64,000 nucleotides of DNA from Escherichia phage JM10: sequence record PP400777, one strand, 5' to 3'. The position numbers and the translations under genes were made by a program. Below the pieces are notes generated by a model. The model worked only from the letters and a program-made list of their open reading frames with translations. It did no database searches and was not told the origin of the DNA. This document shows, piece after piece, positions 14,551 to 18,805 of this stretch. The stretch's first letter is position 1. Every line of letters starts with the position of its first letter.

Positions 14551-14853
14551 TTAGATAGATGTAGGCTCTAATTTTATTTTCATGAACTCAGCAAATTGTC
14601 TGGCAGTTTTTATGCCTTGTTCATGACATTCAAATGCATCATCACAGGGGCTATTTTTGTAATGCTTTGCCATATACTTATAGAATTTTTCAGAATTCTC
14701 GACATTTTGAATTTCAAACAAAGTATATACGTTTTTAATCCCTGATTCCATAAAGTTATCAAAATATGGGTCGATATATGCAGTACCAACGATAGGAGTT
14801 GTTGCTGCAAAAAACCACAGCATCGCCATGACAGCTATCGCTCTTAAGGCCAT
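14551..14853 (-). CDS. rI: lysis inhibition regulator RI (antiholin)
   Basis: signal-anchor N-terminus; FMESGI..PC..FEC motifs match my recall of T4 RI. Confidence 0.75.
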   Translation of the reverse strand: MALRAIAVMAMLWFFAATTPIVGTAYIDPYFDNFMESGIKNVYTLFEIQNVENSEKFYKYMAKHYKNSPCDDAFECHEQGIKTARQFAEFMKIKLEPTSI

Positions 14854-14865
14854 ATAGGCCTCCTG

Positions 14866-15078
14866 TTAATTTTGGCCAGTATTTATTTTTCGCCTTTGGA
14901 CGGCCTTAACATCTGTGAGGTATTTTTCCAGCTTGCGCTTGCGTGTATAATCAGCTTTAGAACCAGTTTGACGGATATCCTCGTTTAAATGAGAAATAGA
15001 ATGTCCTAATTCTCTTCGGATTTCATCCAATTGGGTTACAGTAAGATTACGAAGTTGTCTTTCGTTTAATTGCTGCAT
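14866..15078 (-). CDS. hypothetical small protein
   Basis: 70-aa basic ORF between tk and rI. Confidence 0.4.
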
Positions 15079-15105
15079 ATATACCTCTTGGTTAGATATT
15101 AGTAT

Positions 15106-15687
15106 TTATAACAACCCTGTCAAATCATTCCAATGCTTCCGGCATAATGACACGTATCTATCGGTATCACCAATTTCAATTTGACTGCCATCTGTAATTG
15201 GAAGTCCGTCTTCCGTGACTCTAGCTACCATTGTGGCCTTTTTACCGCAATGACAGACACCTTTAAGTTCAACAAGCTTATCGGCAATAGCCATTAATGC
15301 TTGAGAACCTTCAAATAGATTACCTTTAAAATCTGTTCGTAGTCCATATGCCATTACCGGCACATTGTATACGTCAACAATACGACTAAGTTGATACACC
15401 TTTTCAGTAGTTAAGAACTGAGCTTCGTCAACAAATACACAATGAATATCCTTTTGTGCTGCAGCCCATTTATAGAATTCAAAGATATCCATGTCTTTTG
15501 TAATTATATTGGCATCCTGACGAATACCAATACGAGAGACTATTTCACCTTTTGAATCACGAGTATCAATAGCCGGTTTAAGAACTAATACACCCATGCC
15601 ACGTTCTTTATAGTTATGTGCGGCAGTAAGTAATGAAGCAGACTTACCGGCGTTCATAGCGGCATATGTAAAAATTAAACTAGCCAT
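15106..15687 (-). CDS. tk: thymidine kinase
   Basis: 193 aa; P-loop NAGKSASLL; C-terminal Cys pairs. Confidence 0.9.
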   Translation of the reverse strand: MASLIFTYAAMNAGKSASLLTAAHNYKERGMGVLVLKPAIDTRDSKGEIVSRIGIRQDANIITKDMDIFEFYKWAAAQKDIHCVFVDEAQFLTTEKVYQLSRIVDVYNVPVMAYGLRTDFKGNLFEGSQALMAIADKLVELKGVCHCGKKATMVARVTEDGLPITDGSQIEIGDTDRYVSLCRKHWNDLTGLL

Positions 15688-15696
15688 AAGAGTCCC

Positions 15697-15879
15697 TTAT
15701 AGTGAATTCACGTAGTCAATGAGTTCTTGTTCTTTCCTGTCAAATGATTCCATCAATGCGTGATATTCTTCGTCCGTCAAAGGAGCATATTCATCGTACG
15801 CATTGGTGGCTGCTTGTTCATCCAATAGGTCATGGATAAGTTCGAACAGTTTAGCTTTCTCTTCTTTAGTTAATTTCAT
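15697..15879 (-). CDS. hypothetical small acidic protein
   Basis: 60-aa ORF. Confidence 0.35.
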   Translation of the reverse strand: MKLTKEEKAKLFELIHDLLDEQAATNAYDEYAPLTDEEYHALMESFDRKEQELIDYVNSL

Positions 15880-16370
15880 TTAGGTTCCAAATCAACAATC
15901 ACAATTTCTAGTTTAGTGGAATACGTATCTAAAATCTCTTCGATGACATCCCAGTTTCCACCACCAATACCTGCACCAATTCTTGGCATATAAATTACAG
16001 GCTTTGTTATCTTATTCTTTCCGAATTCATTTAATTCTATTATACAATTCATTAAAGCAGAGTACTCAAAATTAGGTCCCGGCTCAAACTGTGTATAAAG
16101 ATTAAAGCAATAAGCTTTATGGGTCTTAAAATATTTTTCATAAACCGAATAAGACCCGAGTTTAGACTCATCTCCGAATTCGGTTTGAAGTTTATCGGCT
16201 TCCAGAATTTTTGGATAAGCCTTTGCTAATTGTCCTGCTACACCAGCGCCCATTGTATGAAAACAATTACACCCATGCGCAATATTATTACCTTTAGAAA
16301 ACAGGGCGACAATATCGCCCTTGATATAGTTTTTAATCACTTGCTGCAAGTCCTCTAGTATAAGAGTCAA
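15876..16370 (-). CDS. macro-domain-like protein (possible ADP-ribose binding/hydrolase)
   Basis: GCNCFHTMGAGVAGQL and IGAGIGGG glycine-rich motifs resemble macro-domain loops. Confidence 0.4.
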   Translation of the reverse strand: MTLILEDLQQVIKNYIKGDIVALFSKGNNIAHGCNCFHTMGAGVAGQLAKAYPKILEADKLQTEFGDESKLGSYSVYEKYFKTHKAYCFNLYTQFEPGPNFEYSALMNCIIELNEFGKNKITKPVIYMPRIGAGIGGGNWDVIEEILDTYSTKLEIVIVDLEPK

Positions 16371-16680
16371 CTAGGCGGTCCACCATAGAATTGCATGCTG
16401 CCTTATCTTTAGGTTCCGCCACCGAGCATTCTAATATTTGCCATTTTTTATAGTATCTTTTAATTAAGGTAGACGCCTTGAACCTACTAGACGCCCCATC
16501 TTTTTCTCCGTCTTTATACGCATATAACAATTTTTGTGAAAAATCTACTTTACACTCTTGACTTTTACCACAATAATCAGACGCCGTTCTGTTTGTATAC
16601 TCCGTTACATCAGTATATGTAGTATTAGCAAGAGCGTTAAATGAAACCAAGCCAACTATTAAAGCCAACATTTTGGTCAT
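16333..16680 (-). CDS. secreted protein
   Basis: N-terminal signal-peptide-like MTKMLALIVGLVSFNALA. Confidence 0.4.
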   Translation of the reverse strand: MTKMLALIVGLVSFNALANTTYTDVTEYTNRTASDYCGKSQECKVDFSQKLLYAYKDGEKDGASSRFKASTLIKRYYKKWQILECSVAEPKDKAACNSMVDRLVDSYTRGLAASD

Positions 16681-17219
16681 TCTTTTATTTCCAGTAGTTT
16701 ATTTGATTTAAGGTAATTAGCCTTTTCTAGGACTTCAGAAGCATATTTACTTCCAGCACTTGTCTTCCATCCTGCATTATATGAGGATATAGCTTTTCTT
16801 ATATCCCCGTTATGTATATTTAACCAATAAGAAAATTCGATATAAGCCCATCTGGCTGAATTAGACCGCTTAGATAGCATTTTCTTAATTTGGGCATCAG
16901 TCATATTATAACCAAGCTGGTTAATTCTTGCCCTCATTGTCGGTAGATAATTTTGGAACATTCCATACGCATGGTGACCTTTCTTATCTTTAAGATTAAT
17001 ACCGGCAGATGATTCCTGCCATAGTATTGCGGCCATTATGTATCCAAGTCCTTTCTTATGCATATTTTCATGCGTTTTAAATTTTCCGTCCTTAGAAAAC
17101 TGTTCCCCAAACTGATAAGCATAATTCAAGTTATCGAGTTGGACATTACTAAAAGTATGCTCGGAGCTATGTGCTGATAATGAAAGAGCAAATAGACCAG
17201 CGAGTAGTGCTTTTCTCAT
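16677..17219 (-). CDS. secreted lytic transglycosylase-like protein
   Basis: signal peptide; WQESS and SYNAGW motifs typical of SLT domains. Confidence 0.5.
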   Translation of the reverse strand: MRKALLAGLFALSLSAHSSEHTFSNVQLDNLNYAYQFGEQFSKDGKFKTHENMHKKGLGYIMAAILWQESSAGINLKDKKGHHAYGMFQNYLPTMRARINQLGYNMTDAQIKKMLSKRSNSARWAYIEFSYWLNIHNGDIRKAISSYNAGWKTSAGSKYASEVLEKANYLKSNKLLEIKE

Positions 17220-17227
17220 GTTTACCT

Positions 17228-17686
17228 CTAGATTTTAATCACTGCTTTAGAAGCTTTTCCTGGTAGTCGTTTATTGTTAATAATAGCCATTCTGCATTGA
17301 AGAGACTTCATTTTGAATGCTGGATTTTCGCGACAAACTGTAAGTCCTAACCAAAGATTTCCATCAGTTATTTCTAAACGGCCTGGGCGATATTCGACAC
17401 CTTCGACAAAATCTTCATCAACATCTGGACGTGCCGGCATTGATAAAAATTCTGCAACTTCTTTAACATGATTTTTTACTTTATGAAATAATTCAAAAAC
17501 GTAATTCTCATCTATTTCTCTCTGGATGGCACGATCTAAGAGATGTTGAGAATACTTGATATGAAAGCCTGGTAGTCCAAGAGACTTTGCAGCATCTTTT
17601 ATACTGGCATTTATTTTGCGGAACTCCGTTTCAAAGATTCGACGGAGTTTATTACGGCGGATAAAAACGTCTGAATTGATAGTCAT
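17228..17686 (-). CDS. regB: RegB site-specific endoribonuclease
   Basis: 152 aa; close match to my recall of T4 RegB. Confidence 0.85.
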   Translation of the reverse strand: MTINSDVFIRRNKLRRIFETEFRKINASIKDAAKSLGLPGFHIKYSQHLLDRAIQREIDENYVFELFHKVKNHVKEVAEFLSMPARPDVDEDFVEGVEYRPGRLEITDGNLWLGLTVCRENPAFKMKSLQCRMAIINNKRLPGKASKAVIKI

Positions 17687-17714
17687 TTTGATTTCTCCTC
17701 TAGTTGACAGGTCT

Positions 17715-17743
17715 ATAGTAACACAACTAGAGGAGAAGTAAAC
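17715..17743 (-). promoter_or_regulatory. T4-type early promoter upstream of regB
   Basis: GTTTACttctcctctagttgtgtTACTAT. Confidence 0.45.
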
Positions 17744-17747
17744 TACT

Positions 17748-17963
17748 TTATTGATAAAATGGAGTTAAAGCCCAAGATTCTTTAGATACTATATTGGCGA
17801 AATGCCTCATCTCTTCGATTTGGCGACGACGCTGGTCAGCATAGTCTTCTTCGCCTTCTTCCTTACAATCTTCAAGGTCTTCTTCAAGATACTTTAAGTA
17901 TTCACTACAAATTTTGTTGACCTTTTCTTGAAAGTCCAATAACCCAGTAATAGTAGAAGCCAT
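17748..17963 (-). CDS. hypothetical small acidic protein (vs.3 position)
   Basis: 71-aa ORF. Confidence 0.4.
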   Translation of the reverse strand: MASTITGLLDFQEKVNKICSEYLKYLEEDLEDCKEEGEEDYADQRRRQIEEMRHFANIVSKESWALTPFYQ

Positions 17964-18239
17964 TAGTATTTTTCCTCAGGTCGAAATACTGCACGACATG
18001 CCCACATGCTGGCTTCTTTTAGATGTTGCTTAGCATACTTAAGAGCCTGCACTGCATCCATATCTTCTTTGGTTTGTTGCTCTGTTTCATTTTCTTTCAA
18101 GATATATGCTTCTTCAATCAGAGCATCAAACAACAATCCAAGACGGACTTCGGCATCTTTAATAGCGTTCACTTTACCGATTTTATCATCGGTATGCGGC
18201 TTGTAGCCTTTGATGTCTTCAATCGACATAAGGAATTTC
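17963..18239 (-). CDS. Acb2-like protein (T4 vs.4 position); candidate cyclic-nucleotide sponge
   Basis: 92 aa from MSIEDIK; position and size match T4 vs.4; assignment from recall only. Confidence 0.4.
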
Positions 18240-18443
18240 CTCATCAGTGGCAAGGTCATATTCGACCAATTGGATAGGCTCATTAATACCATATCCACGT
18301 ACAGTGATATCAGTTGACGGATATTTTCCAGTAATATCACCCGTTCTAAATGCTTCAATGAATGATTGCTCGCCTGAGCAACTAAACCAGGCGGCAAAAC
18401 ATTTTAAAACATCTTCAGACCCTTCTATAATCAATTTAGCCAT
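18219..18443 (-). CDS. hypothetical small protein
   Basis: 74-aa ORF. Confidence 0.4.
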   Translation of the reverse strand: MAKLIIEGSEDVLKCFAAWFSCSGEQSFIEAFRTGDITGKYPSTDITVRGYGINEPIQLVEYDLATDEEIPYVD

Positions 18444-18805
18444 TATAGACTCTCAGTAAAGGTACGAGCGATAACGTCGCGCTGCTGTTCCGGAGTCAGA
18501 GAGTTAAAGCGAACTGCATAACCGGATACACGGATGGTCAGCTGCGGATATTTTTCCGGATGCTTAACTGCATCTTCCAGAGTTTCACGACGCAGAACGT
18601 TAACGTTCAGATGTTGACCACCTTCAATTTTAACTTTAGGTTGATGTTCAATTTCAATTTCACGGGCATGCAAACCGTAGAAAATTTCCGGGTCTACAAT
18701 AGCGTCTTCTTTAAAAGTCTTAGAGACAATAATCCGGGCTTGAGTACCGTCTTCAAAATAAATAGTGCCTTTATGCGCACCTTCAAGAATTTGATATGCT
18801 TTCAT
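18443..18805 (-). CDS. autonomous glycyl-radical cofactor (GrcA/YfiD-like)
   Basis: C-terminal [25 protein letters not shown] is the pyruvate formate-lyase glycyl-radical signature. Confidence 0.75.

What the first reader, a model, noticed from the sequence alone, without database searches (positions are those of the whole stretch)
15876..16370. Macro-domain-like protein next to tk
The 164-aa ORF has glycine-rich motifs (HGCNCFHTMGAGVAGQLAKAYP and RIGAGIGGGNW) resembling macro-domain ADP-ribose-binding loops. A phage macro domain could remove ADP-ribose marks, for example countering DarT-type ADP-ribosylating defence toxins or tuning the phage's own ADP-ribosyltransferases.
Basis: inference. 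Interest (0 to 1): 0.55.

Follow-up and report, generated by a model that had tools for sequence, protein, structure and literature searches.

The report
Phage macrodomain Tk.4 (AdfM), known

Summary
The window is an RB69-like T-even phage (98.9% DNA identity). The flagged ORF is gene tk.4, lying in the order regB, vs.1, vs, tk.4, tk.2, tk. T4 has ATG where the window has GTG (16340), with a conserved GAGGA upstream, giving a 154-aa protein at 15876..16340(-).

It is clearly a macrodomain: Pfam Macro scores above its cut-off, the AlphaFold2 model has pLDDT 96, and Foldseek finds TARG1, Poa1p, BT1257, DarG and SCO6735.

It is 84% identical to T4 Tk.4. A 2025 preprint renamed T4 Tk.4 AdfM because deleting it makes T4 sensitive to DarTG2.

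What I add:
- The protein is not a DarG derivative. It has an invariant Gln where DarG and TARG1 have the catalytic Lys, as SCO6735 does. It has no DarT-binding domain.
- None of its 80 cellular relatives has a DarT gene within 6 kb.
- The same family contains Adpp, the ADPR-1''-phosphate phosphatase of phage NARP1 operons. That activity is the main rival or a second function.

No biochemistry exists for this clade.

The parts
15876..16340 (-). tk.4 / adfM coding sequence, 154 aa, GTG start at 16340, TGA stop at 15878..15876
   Evidence: ORF list. RB69 annotation RB69p113 maps to these coordinates. T4 has ATG at the same position. 84% identity to T4 Tk.4. Three residues differ from RB69 Tk.4.
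16341..16370 (-). They lie inside the 3' end of vs.
   Evidence: T4 has an in-frame TAG directly before its ATG, and the homologues start at MI(K/V)xYIKGD.
16351..16355 (-). GAGGA ribosome-binding site, 10 nt before the GTG start, conserved in T4
16242..16277 (-). Residues H22-G33 (HGCNCFHTMGAG): first ADP-ribose-binding loop. N25 aligns with DarG N22 and PhiKZ AdfM N23; H22 aligns with Poa1p H23.
   Evidence: Alignments. H22, G23, N25 and C26 are kept in 80 of 80 cellular homologues, but these residues were part of the search pattern.
16089..16103 (-). Residues N80-Q84 (NLYTQ). Q84 sits where TARG1 K84, DarG K80 and PhiKZ AdfM K78 are, and where SCO6735 Q85 and the BT1257 Gln are.
   Evidence: N80, Y82, T83 and Q84 are invariant in the 66-sequence family alignment. 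Q84 is kept in 80 of 80 cellular homologues and was not part of the search pattern. Alignments.
15951..15986 (-). Residues P119-W130 (PRIGAGIGGGNW): glycine-rich diphosphate-binding loop. G126 sits where TARG1 D125 is.
16333..16680 (-). vs (valyl-tRNA synthetase modifier), the upstream gene; its last 8 nt overlap the tk.4 start
15697..15879 (-). tk.2, the downstream gene; its ATG overlaps the tk.4 stop (ATGA)

Best explanation
The gene is the Mosigvirus (RB69-type) orthologue of T4 tk.4, also called adfM. It encodes a 154-aa stand-alone macrodomain, read from the same strand as regB, vs.1, vs, tk.2 and tk; the short overlaps with vs and tk.2 suggest translational coupling.

The most likely job is to bind ADP-ribose that the host toxin DarT2 has attached to thymidines in single-stranded phage DNA, and to hydrolyse the bond. 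That would restore replicable DNA and cancel DarTG2 defence.

Shown here: the fold, the orthology, and the intact ADP-ribose-binding loops.

Shown by others: T4 lacking tk.4 becomes sensitive to DarTG2.

Inferred: the enzymatic removal from DNA. Also inferred is that catalysis follows the SCO6735 scheme rather than the Lys-based scheme of DarG and TARG1. In SCO6735 a Gln at the former Lys position is essential, and its authors propose that it positions the substrate while a water-mediated step cleaves the bond. The window protein has an invariant Gln84 at that position.
For: Fold:
- Pfam Macro scores above its cut-off.
- Profile search of the PDB gives BT1257 5e-17, TARG1 1.7e-16, SCO6735 3.3e-14, Poa1p 3.5e-14 and DarG 4e-14.
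- The AlphaFold2 model has pLDDT 96.
- Foldseek TM-scores (normalised to the query) are 0.67-0.82 to TARG1, Poa1p, BT1257, DarG and SCO6735.

Orthology:
- 84% identity to T4 Tk.4 over 153 residues.
- Same neighbours in the same order.
- All 12 invariant family positions are kept.

Function of the orthologue:
- tk.4 was the only significant hit when the T4 transposon library was grown on a DarTG2 host.
- The clean knock-out was DarTG2-sensitive (10.1101/2025.11.20.689424).
- T4 lacking adfA and adfN stays DarTG2-resistant, so another factor was expected (PMC11825919).

Plausibility of the chemistry:
- SCO6735 has Gln85 at the same aligned position. It removes thymidine-linked ADP-ribose from DNA and rescues E. 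coli from DarT. Its Q85A and Q85E mutants are inactive (PMC9411070; alignment).
- PhiKZ gp104, another stand-alone phage macrodomain, removes DarT2 marks from DNA in vitro (PMC13309987).

Consistency:
- A review lists RB69 as a DarTG1 target and T5/SECphi18 as DarTG2 targets.
- T5, the DarTG2-sensitive control, has no member of this family in bases 1-86000.
Against: - No enzymatic assay exists for T4 Tk.4 or any close relative. The preprint says only that enzymatic removal 'seems likely'.
- The catalytic Lys of DarG and TARG1 and the Asp of TARG1 are both absent: Gln84 and Gly126 take their places.
- The protein also lacks Lys34 of SCO6735, which becomes Ala32, and lacks the longer Lys-bearing mobile loop of SCO6735. 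Both matter for DNA activity in SCO6735.
- A member of the same family is a proven small-molecule ADPR-1''-phosphate phosphatase.
- The ALC1 macrodomain also has Gln at this aligned position. From my own knowledge it is an ADP-ribose binder rather than a hydrolase, so Gln alone does not prove catalysis.
- The RB69-type allele has not itself been tested.
Confidence: 0.7

Rival explanations
1. It is mainly an ADP-ribose-1''-phosphate phosphatase, like Adpp and Poa1p. It would act on a small molecule, for instance the product of RES-type NAD+ phosphorolysis by the aRES defence, and not on DNA.
For: - Public records have long called it a 'phosphatase' with an 'A1pp phosphatase motif', and PHROG 335 is named 'phosphatase'.
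- Poa1p is among the best structural matches, with TM 0.80-0.82, and shares the H-x-C-N-C motif.
- Adpp of Vibrio phage Gary converts ADPR-1''-P to ADPR in vitro (10.64898/2026.01.28.702374).
- Its 94%-identical homologue in phage Bennett is 39% identical to the window protein. It scores 122.6 bits on the Tk.4-family model against 41.8 on a DarG model, and it keeps the Gln.
Against: - Adpp works only together with Adps and Namat in a NARP1 operon.
- The RB69-type genome has no Adps or Namat ORF. I searched the window plus RB69 bases 1-45000 and 105000-167560 with phmmer at E<=10.
- The only phenotype reported for T4 tk.4 is DarTG2 sensitivity.
- The two activities are not mutually exclusive: viral macrodomains that hydrolyse ADP-ribosylated substrates are also reported to dephosphorylate ADPR-1''-P in vitro.
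Confidence: 0.15
2. It neutralises DarT2 without catalysis, by binding the toxin or shielding its product. This is the 'interaction-inhibition' seen with DarG and SCO6735.
For: - Catalytically dead SCO6735 Q85A, DarG K80A and TARG1 K84A still inhibit DarT in vitro, and SCO6735 does so most strongly (PMC9411070).
- The known anti-DarT factor AdfB is proposed to act through direct interaction with DarT (PMC11481870).
Against: - Every ADP-ribose-binding and putative catalytic position is invariant across phage and cellular homologues. That fits an enzyme better than a toxin-specific binder.
- The cellular homologues have no DarT nearby to bind.
- There is no DarT-binding C-terminal domain.
Confidence: 0.08
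3. It reverses or trims ADP-ribosylation made by the phage's own transferases (Alt, ModA, ModB), or ADP-ribosylation or RNAylation of RNA, or it deacetylates O-acetyl-ADP-ribose.
For: - RB69 encodes modA, modB and alt.
- Some metagenome annotators name homologues 'O-acetyl-ADP-ribose deacetylase'.
- TARG1 in the PDB carries that same name.
Against: - Alt and ModA act on arginine. From my own knowledge, macrodomains of this class are not known to cleave that linkage.
- tk.4 is not near these genes.
- The family is widespread in phages and bacteria. I did not test whether those genomes carry Alt/Mod homologues.
- No phenotype points this way.
- The 'deacetylase' names are automatic transfers, not tests.
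Confidence: 0.05

Closest known systems
T4 Tk.4 = AdfM (anti-DarT factor Macrodomain; bioRxiv 10.1101/2025.11.20.689424)
   Same: 84% identical over 153 residues. Same length, same start position and same neighbours vs and tk.2. All invariant residues are shared.
   Different: - 24 substitutions, for example GIGGGNW here against GIGKGNW in T4.
- T4 has two extra small genes, tk.1 and tk.3, between tk.4 and tk.
- The RB69-type allele has not been tested.
DarG antitoxin macrodomain (T. aquaticus 5M31/5M3E, M. tuberculosis 5M3I)
   Same: Same fold, with TM 0.73-0.77. The Asn of the first loop is conserved: N25 here, N22 in DarG. The presumed substrate is the same, thymidine-linked ADP-ribose on ssDNA.
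   Different: - Gln84 replaces the catalytic Lys80.
- No C-terminal DarT-binding domain: 154 aa against about 340-370 aa.
- No adjacent darT.
- 31.4 bits against a 250-bit cut-off for the NCBIfam DarG model.
- 33.6 bits on a DarG-macro HMM against 213 on its own family HMM.
PhiKZ gp104, also named AdfM (Cell Rep 2026, PMC13309987)
   Same: A stand-alone phage macrodomain that counters DarTG2. Removal of ADP-ribose from DNA has been shown in vitro.
   Different: It belongs to a different lineage. PhiKZ gp104 is DarG-like: 90.7 bits to M. tuberculosis DarG, 132 bits on the DarG HMM, and Lys78. Against the window protein it gives only a 23-residue BLASTP match of 24 bits. Two unrelated-lineage proteins now share one name.
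SCO6735 (Streptomyces coelicolor, 5E3B) and BT1257 (2FG1/2AFC)
   Same: Gln at the position of the catalytic Lys. Both are stand-alone proteins of about 150 aa. SCO6735 hydrolyses thymidine-linked ADP-ribose on DNA and rescues cells from DarT. BT1257 is the best PDB sequence match.
   Different: - Only 22-30% identity, and 43 bits on a BT1257/SCO6735 HMM.
- Lacks the longer mobile loop carrying Lys89 and Lys93.
- Has Ala32 where SCO6735 has Lys34.
Adpp, the NARP1-associated ADPR-1''-phosphate phosphatase (Vibrio phage Gary; bioRxiv 10.64898/2026.01.28.702374), and yeast Poa1p (6LFQ-6LFU)
   Same: Adpp-type proteins fall in the same sequence family: 39-40% identity and 123-153 bits on the Tk.4-family HMM. 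They share H-x-C-N-C and the Gln. Poa1p is a top structural match.
   Different: Adpp genes sit between or next to Adps and Namat. The RB69-type genome has neither. Poa1p has Ser, not Gln, at the aligned position.
Human TARG1 / OARD1 (4J5R, 4J5S)
   Same: Best Foldseek hit at E 2e-10. Shares the MGAG first loop and the PRIG-x-G second loop.
   Different: The catalytic dyad Lys84/Asp125 is replaced by Gln84/Gly126.

Membership tests
Macro domain (Pfam PF01661) | Score at or above Pfam's gathering cut-off | tested here: met
   27.4 bits against a cut-off of 22, E 3.5e-6, covering profile positions 2-117 of 118.
Macro domain (Pfam PF01661) | Three-layer alpha/beta/alpha fold of solved macrodomains | tested here: met
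   AlphaFold2 model with pLDDT 96 and pTM 0.91. Foldseek probability 1.00 and TM 0.67-0.82 to TARG1, Poa1p, BT1257, DarG and SCO6735.
Macro domain (Pfam PF01661) | Both ADP-ribose-binding loops present (N-containing loop 1; G-x-G-rich loop 2) | tested here: met
   HGCNCFHTMGAG and PRIGAGIGGGNW align with the corresponding loops of TARG1, DarG, BT1257 and SCO6735.
Macro domain (Pfam PF01661) | Binds ADP-ribose | not testable with these tools
   Needs ITC, thermal shift or co-crystallisation.
AdfM in the T4 sense (Tk.4 orthologues) | Orthology to T4 Tk.4 (sequence and gene order) | tested here: met
   84% identity over 153 residues. Gene order regB, vs.1, vs, tk.4, tk.2, tk in both phages.
AdfM in the T4 sense (Tk.4 orthologues) | Required for plaque formation on DarTG2-expressing hosts | not testable with these tools
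   Shown for T4 only. A review lists RB69 as a target of DarTG1, not DarTG2.
DarG antitoxin (NCBIfam NF048014) | Score at or above the curated cut-off | tested here: not met
   31.4 bits against a cut-off of 250. The PADLOC DarG model gives only 31.6 bits.
DarG antitoxin (NCBIfam NF048014) | C-terminal DarT-binding domain | tested here: not met
   The protein is 154 aa and consists of the macrodomain only. Plasmid DarGs are 336-371 aa.
DarG antitoxin (NCBIfam NF048014) | Adjacent darT toxin gene | tested here: not met
   No DarT-like ORF in the window or the rest of RB69, nor within 6 kb of any of 80 cellular homologues. DarG-type relatives on plasmids do sit next to DarT.
DarG antitoxin (NCBIfam NF048014) | Catalytic lysine (K80 in T. 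aquaticus and M. tuberculosis DarG) | tested here: not met
   Gln84 occupies the aligned column. It is invariant in 66 family members and in 80 cellular homologues.
SCO6735/BT1257-type (Gln-type) ALC1-like macrodomain hydrolases | Gln at the position of the TARG1/DarG catalytic Lys | tested here: met
   Q84 aligns with SCO6735 Q85 and the BT1257 Gln.
SCO6735/BT1257-type (Gln-type) ALC1-like macrodomain hydrolases | Extended mobile loop with Lys89/Lys93, and Lys34 in the first loop | tested here: not met
   Six-residue gap opposite the SCO6735/BT1257 loop, and Ala32 opposite Lys34. Only 43.3 bits on a BT1257/SCO6735 HMM.
Adpp (ADPR-1''-P phosphatase of NARP1-AP) | Sequence-family relationship to the characterised enzyme | tested here: met
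   39% identity to Bennett gp178, which is 94.3% identical to the Gary protein. Bennett gp178 scores 122.6 bits on the Tk.4-family HMM.
Adpp (ADPR-1''-P phosphatase of NARP1-AP) | Encoded in an operon with Adps and Namat | tested here: not met
   The neighbours are vs and tk.2. No Adps or Namat ORF in the RB69-type genome.
Adpp (ADPR-1''-P phosphatase of NARP1-AP) | Dephosphorylates ADPR-1''-P to ADPR | not testable with these tools
   Needs an LC-MS assay like the one described.

The most novel reading that the evidence does not exclude
Tk.4-type macrodomains form their own Gln-type clade. They are not orphaned DarG antitoxins. Phages use this clade for two different anti-defence tasks with essentially one active site: removing DarT2 marks from DNA (T4 AdfM) and dephosphorylating ADPR-1''-P for NAD+ rebuilding (Adpp). 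The T4/RB69 enzyme may be bifunctional, and its DNA de-ADP-ribosylation would then run by a lysine-independent, SCO6735-like mechanism.
Probability: 0.3. Interest if true: 0.5.

Novelty: already known. Interest (0 to 1): 0.22.

Why it matters
ADP-ribosylation of DNA by DarT is an established anti-phage defence, and T-even phages carry layered counter-measures: AdfA, AdfN and now AdfM. Knowing that RB69-type phages keep an intact adfM helps explain why RB69 is reported as a target of DarTG1 and not of DarTG2.

The modest new point concerns lineage. This AdfM is of a different lineage from DarG and from PhiKZ 'AdfM', it lacks the catalytic lysine, and it belongs to the same family as the NAD+-salvage phosphatase Adpp. 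That matters for annotation, because the labels 'phosphatase', 'AdfM' and 'Adpp' are currently applied to one family. It also matters for choosing which residues to mutate.

Tried and rejected
- DarG membership was tested and rejected. The score is far below the cut-off, there is no Lys, no C-terminal domain and no DarT neighbour.
- I looked for DarT next to cellular homologues. I scanned 94 immediate neighbours from 63 loci with Pfam and PADLOC, then searched all ORFs of 80 loci with a DarT HMM and with phmmer. Nothing was found. Caveats: the Pfam and PADLOC tables show only the top 25 families, the DarT HMM came from four sequences, and one of those (Calothrix) may not be a true DarT.
- I searched plasmids for DarT-linked relatives of Tk.4. 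There were 32 hits and none was annotated next to DarT. The PhiKZ-type query, by contrast, found DarT-adjacent genes.
- Net charge was tried as a discriminator between DNA-acting and small-molecule enzymes. It was uninformative: Tk.4 has pI 5.9, but the proven DNA enzyme PhiKZ gp104 has pI 5.05.
- Promoter and terminator scans of 14800-18500 gave no more sites than shuffled sequence.
- The hairpin inside the 5' end of the gene is predicted but not significant, with z about -1.9.
- A literature search for the word 'AdfM' was swamped by journal DOIs.
- T5 bases 86001-121750 (structural genes and the terminal repeat) were not scanned.

Full report
**What the window is.** The region 15000-17300 matches Escherichia phage RB69 at 98.9% identity over its full length, and about 150 related Mosigvirus genomes match at 95-99%. 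In RB69 coordinates the flagged ORF is tk.4 (RB69p113), annotated 'phosphatase; contains A1pp phosphatase motif'. The gene order is regB, vs.1, vs, tk.4, tk.2, tk, all on the minus strand. T4 has the same order with two extra small genes, tk.1 and tk.3. Other public records already label the gene 'macro domain protein', 'Poa1p-like family protein' or 'ADP-ribose binding module'.

**Checking the observation.**
- The 164-aa length is the longest possible reading, from a TTG.
- RB69's annotation starts 30 nt later. T4 has ATG where the window has GTG (16340). Both have GAGGA about 10 nt upstream.
- In T4 an in-frame TAG sits immediately before the ATG, so the T4 protein cannot be longer.
- I therefore take 15876..16340 (154 aa) as the gene.
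- Its start overlaps the end of vs by 8 nt, and its TGA overlaps the ATG of tk.2. This suggests translational coupling.
- tk itself lies one small gene further on.

**Is it a macrodomain?** Yes.
- Pfam Macro scores 27.4 bits against a cut-off of 22. PHROG 335 gives 3.7e-66.
- A single-sequence search of the PDB finds BT1257, Poa1p, SCO6735, TARG1 and the DarG macrodomains.
- A profile of 66 homologues raises these to E-values between 5e-17 and 2e-12.
- An AlphaFold2 model built on 66 sequences has pLDDT 96.0 and pTM 0.91.
- Its best Foldseek matches are TARG1 (E 2e-10), Poa1p (TM 0.80-0.82), BT1257 (0.77), DarG (0.73-0.77) and SCO6735 (0.71).

**What is known about the gene.** The window protein is 84% identical to T4 Tk.4 and differs from RB69 Tk.4 at three residues.
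- A November 2025 preprint (10.1101/2025.11.20.689424) screened a T4 transposon library on a DarTG2-expressing host. It found tk.4 as the single significant hit.
- A clean deletion sensitised T4 to DarTG2. The authors noted structural similarity to M. tuberculosis DarG and named the gene adfM. They state that enzymatic removal of ADP-ribose from DNA 'seems likely'.
- Earlier work had shown that T4 lacking adfA and adfN remains DarTG2-resistant, and predicted a further factor (PMC11825919).
- A review lists RB69 as a target of DarTG1 and T5/SECphi18 as targets of DarTG2.
- T5, the DarTG2-sensitive control, has no member of this family in its first 86 kb.

**It is not a DarG derivative.**
- The NCBIfam DarG model gives 31.4 bits against a cut-off of 250.
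- The protein consists of the macrodomain only.
- Neither the window nor the rest of RB69 has a DarT-like ORF.
- In the family alignment N80, Y82, T83 and Q84 are invariant.
- The profile-to-PDB alignment puts Q84 opposite TARG1 Lys84, and Gly126 opposite TARG1 Asp125.
- A multiple alignment puts Q84 in one column with DarG Lys80 (both species), PhiKZ gp104 Lys78, the BT1257 Gln and SCO6735 Gln85. Residue numbering was checked against the published Lys34, Lys89 and Lys93 of SCO6735 and N22/K80 of DarG.
- SCO6735 hydrolyses thymidine-linked ADP-ribose on DNA, rescues E. coli from DarT, and is killed by Q85A or Q85E (PMC9411070). So a Gln at this site is compatible with the proposed activity.
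- However, Tk.4 lacks the longer Lys-bearing loop and Lys34 of SCO6735.

**Where the family sits.** I built HMMs and scored reference proteins against them.

| Protein | Tk.4-family HMM (bits) | DarG-macro HMM (bits) | BT1257/SCO6735 HMM (bits) |
|---|---|---|---|
| Window Tk.4 | 213 | 33.6 | 43.3 |
| PhiKZ gp104 | 35 | 132 | 4.3 |

- PhiKZ gp104 was independently named AdfM and shown to remove DarT2 marks in vitro (PMC13309987).
- BLASTP between PhiKZ gp104 and the window protein finds only a 23-residue match.
- So two different macrodomain lineages carry the same name.

**Cellular relatives.** A scan of one genome per species found 369 relatives. I examined the best 80.
- Nearly all are stand-alone genes of about 150 aa.
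- All 80 keep Gln84, a residue that was not part of the search pattern.
- None has a DarT-like ORF within 6 kb.
- Among 94 immediate neighbours, Pfam shows NADAR (3), NUDIX (2) and assorted housekeeping and defence-island ATPases, with no DarT in the listed families.
- By contrast, plasmid relatives of PhiKZ gp104 sit directly downstream of DarT.

**A second function in the same family.**
- In Acinetobacter phage Rocket and Vibrio phage Bennett, the Tk.4-like gene is wedged next to 'ribose-phosphate pyrophosphokinase' and 'nicotinamide/nicotinate phosphoribosyltransferase' genes.
- This arrangement is the NARP1-AP operon described in January 2026. The macro protein Adpp of Vibrio phage Gary converts ADPR-1''-phosphate, the product of the aRES defence, to ADPR for NAD+ rebuilding (10.64898/2026.01.28.702374).
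- Bennett gp178 is 94.3% identical to the Gary protein and 39% identical to the window protein. It shares H-x-C-N-C and the Gln, and scores 122.6 bits on the Tk.4-family HMM.
- So phosphatase activity is the main rival, or a second activity.
- Against it as the primary role here: Adpp needs Adps and Namat, and the RB69-type genome encodes neither.

**Verdict.** The gene and its role are already described, so interest is low. What remains open is the biochemistry, in particular whether this Gln-type enzyme really hydrolyses thymidine-linked ADP-ribose, and whether it also acts as an ADPR-1''-P phosphatase.

Noticed in passing
window 16303..16321 (-), inside the 5' end of tk.4; T4 equivalent L002:6330-6415: An 8-9 bp GC-rich hairpin (AGGGCGAT-AUU-GUCGCCCU) followed by a U-run starts 20 nt after the tk.4 start codon and is conserved in T4. 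In the window the flanking bases can also pair with the GAGGA ribosome-binding site. Folding energy is only about 1.9 sd better than shuffles. Much of the pairing is forced by the conserved peptide KGDIVAL, so it may be coincidental.
   Followed up: partly
L088:967-4471 (Acinetobacter phage Rocket) and L089:3129-6135 (Vibrio phage Bennett): Tk.4-family macro genes sit inside NAD+-reconstitution (NARP1) gene clusters, with start codons overlapping the upstream stop codon. This matches the published NARP1-AP/Adpp system. One family therefore covers both 'AdfM' and 'Adpp'.
   Followed up: yes
L003:22518-23003 (PhiKZ gp104) compared with window 15876..16340: Name collision. 'AdfM' was given independently to PhiKZ gp104, a DarG-like Lys-type macrodomain, and to T4 Tk.4, a Gln-type macrodomain of a separate family. 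The two share only a 23-residue BLASTP match.
   Followed up: yes
cellular loci L005-L083 (immediate neighbours of the macro gene): Three of the 94 neighbouring proteins are NADAR-domain proteins and two are NUDIX. A macrodomain next to a NADAR protein without any DarT could be a toxin-free de-ADP-ribosylation pair. I did not identify which loci these were.
   Followed up: no
window 15106..16340 compared with T4 L002:4764-6390: T4 has five genes here (tk, tk.1, tk.2, tk.3, tk.4) and the RB69-type window has three (tk, tk.2, tk.4). In the RB69 record, a gene labelled tk.1 ('helicase loader') is annotated about 1.2 kb beyond tk, on the side away from tk.4 (L001:1713-1892).
   Followed up: no
T2 tk.4 (literature, bioRxiv 10.64898/2026.06.19.733364): RIL-seq reported the host sRNA ArcZ pairing with the T2 tk.4 transcript, with no change in protein level in an arcZ deletion strain. 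That paper describes tk.4 as a 'putative thymidine kinase', which is a mislabel.
   Followed up: no
PLSDB record CP057073.1, 19865-20308 (hit H66): An E. coli 'plasmid' of 137.6 kb carries a 43.7%-identical homologue. The identity and match length are the same as for phage vb_EcoM_bov10K2 (135.9 kb, hit H41).
   Followed up: no
RB69 L091:25268-25681 (gene 30.3 / adfN), outside the window: The literature reports that RB69 adfN carries a frameshift that truncates the protein, which makes RB69 uniquely DarTG1-sensitive (PMC11825919). By contrast the adfM/tk.4 copy in this window is intact.
   Followed up: partly
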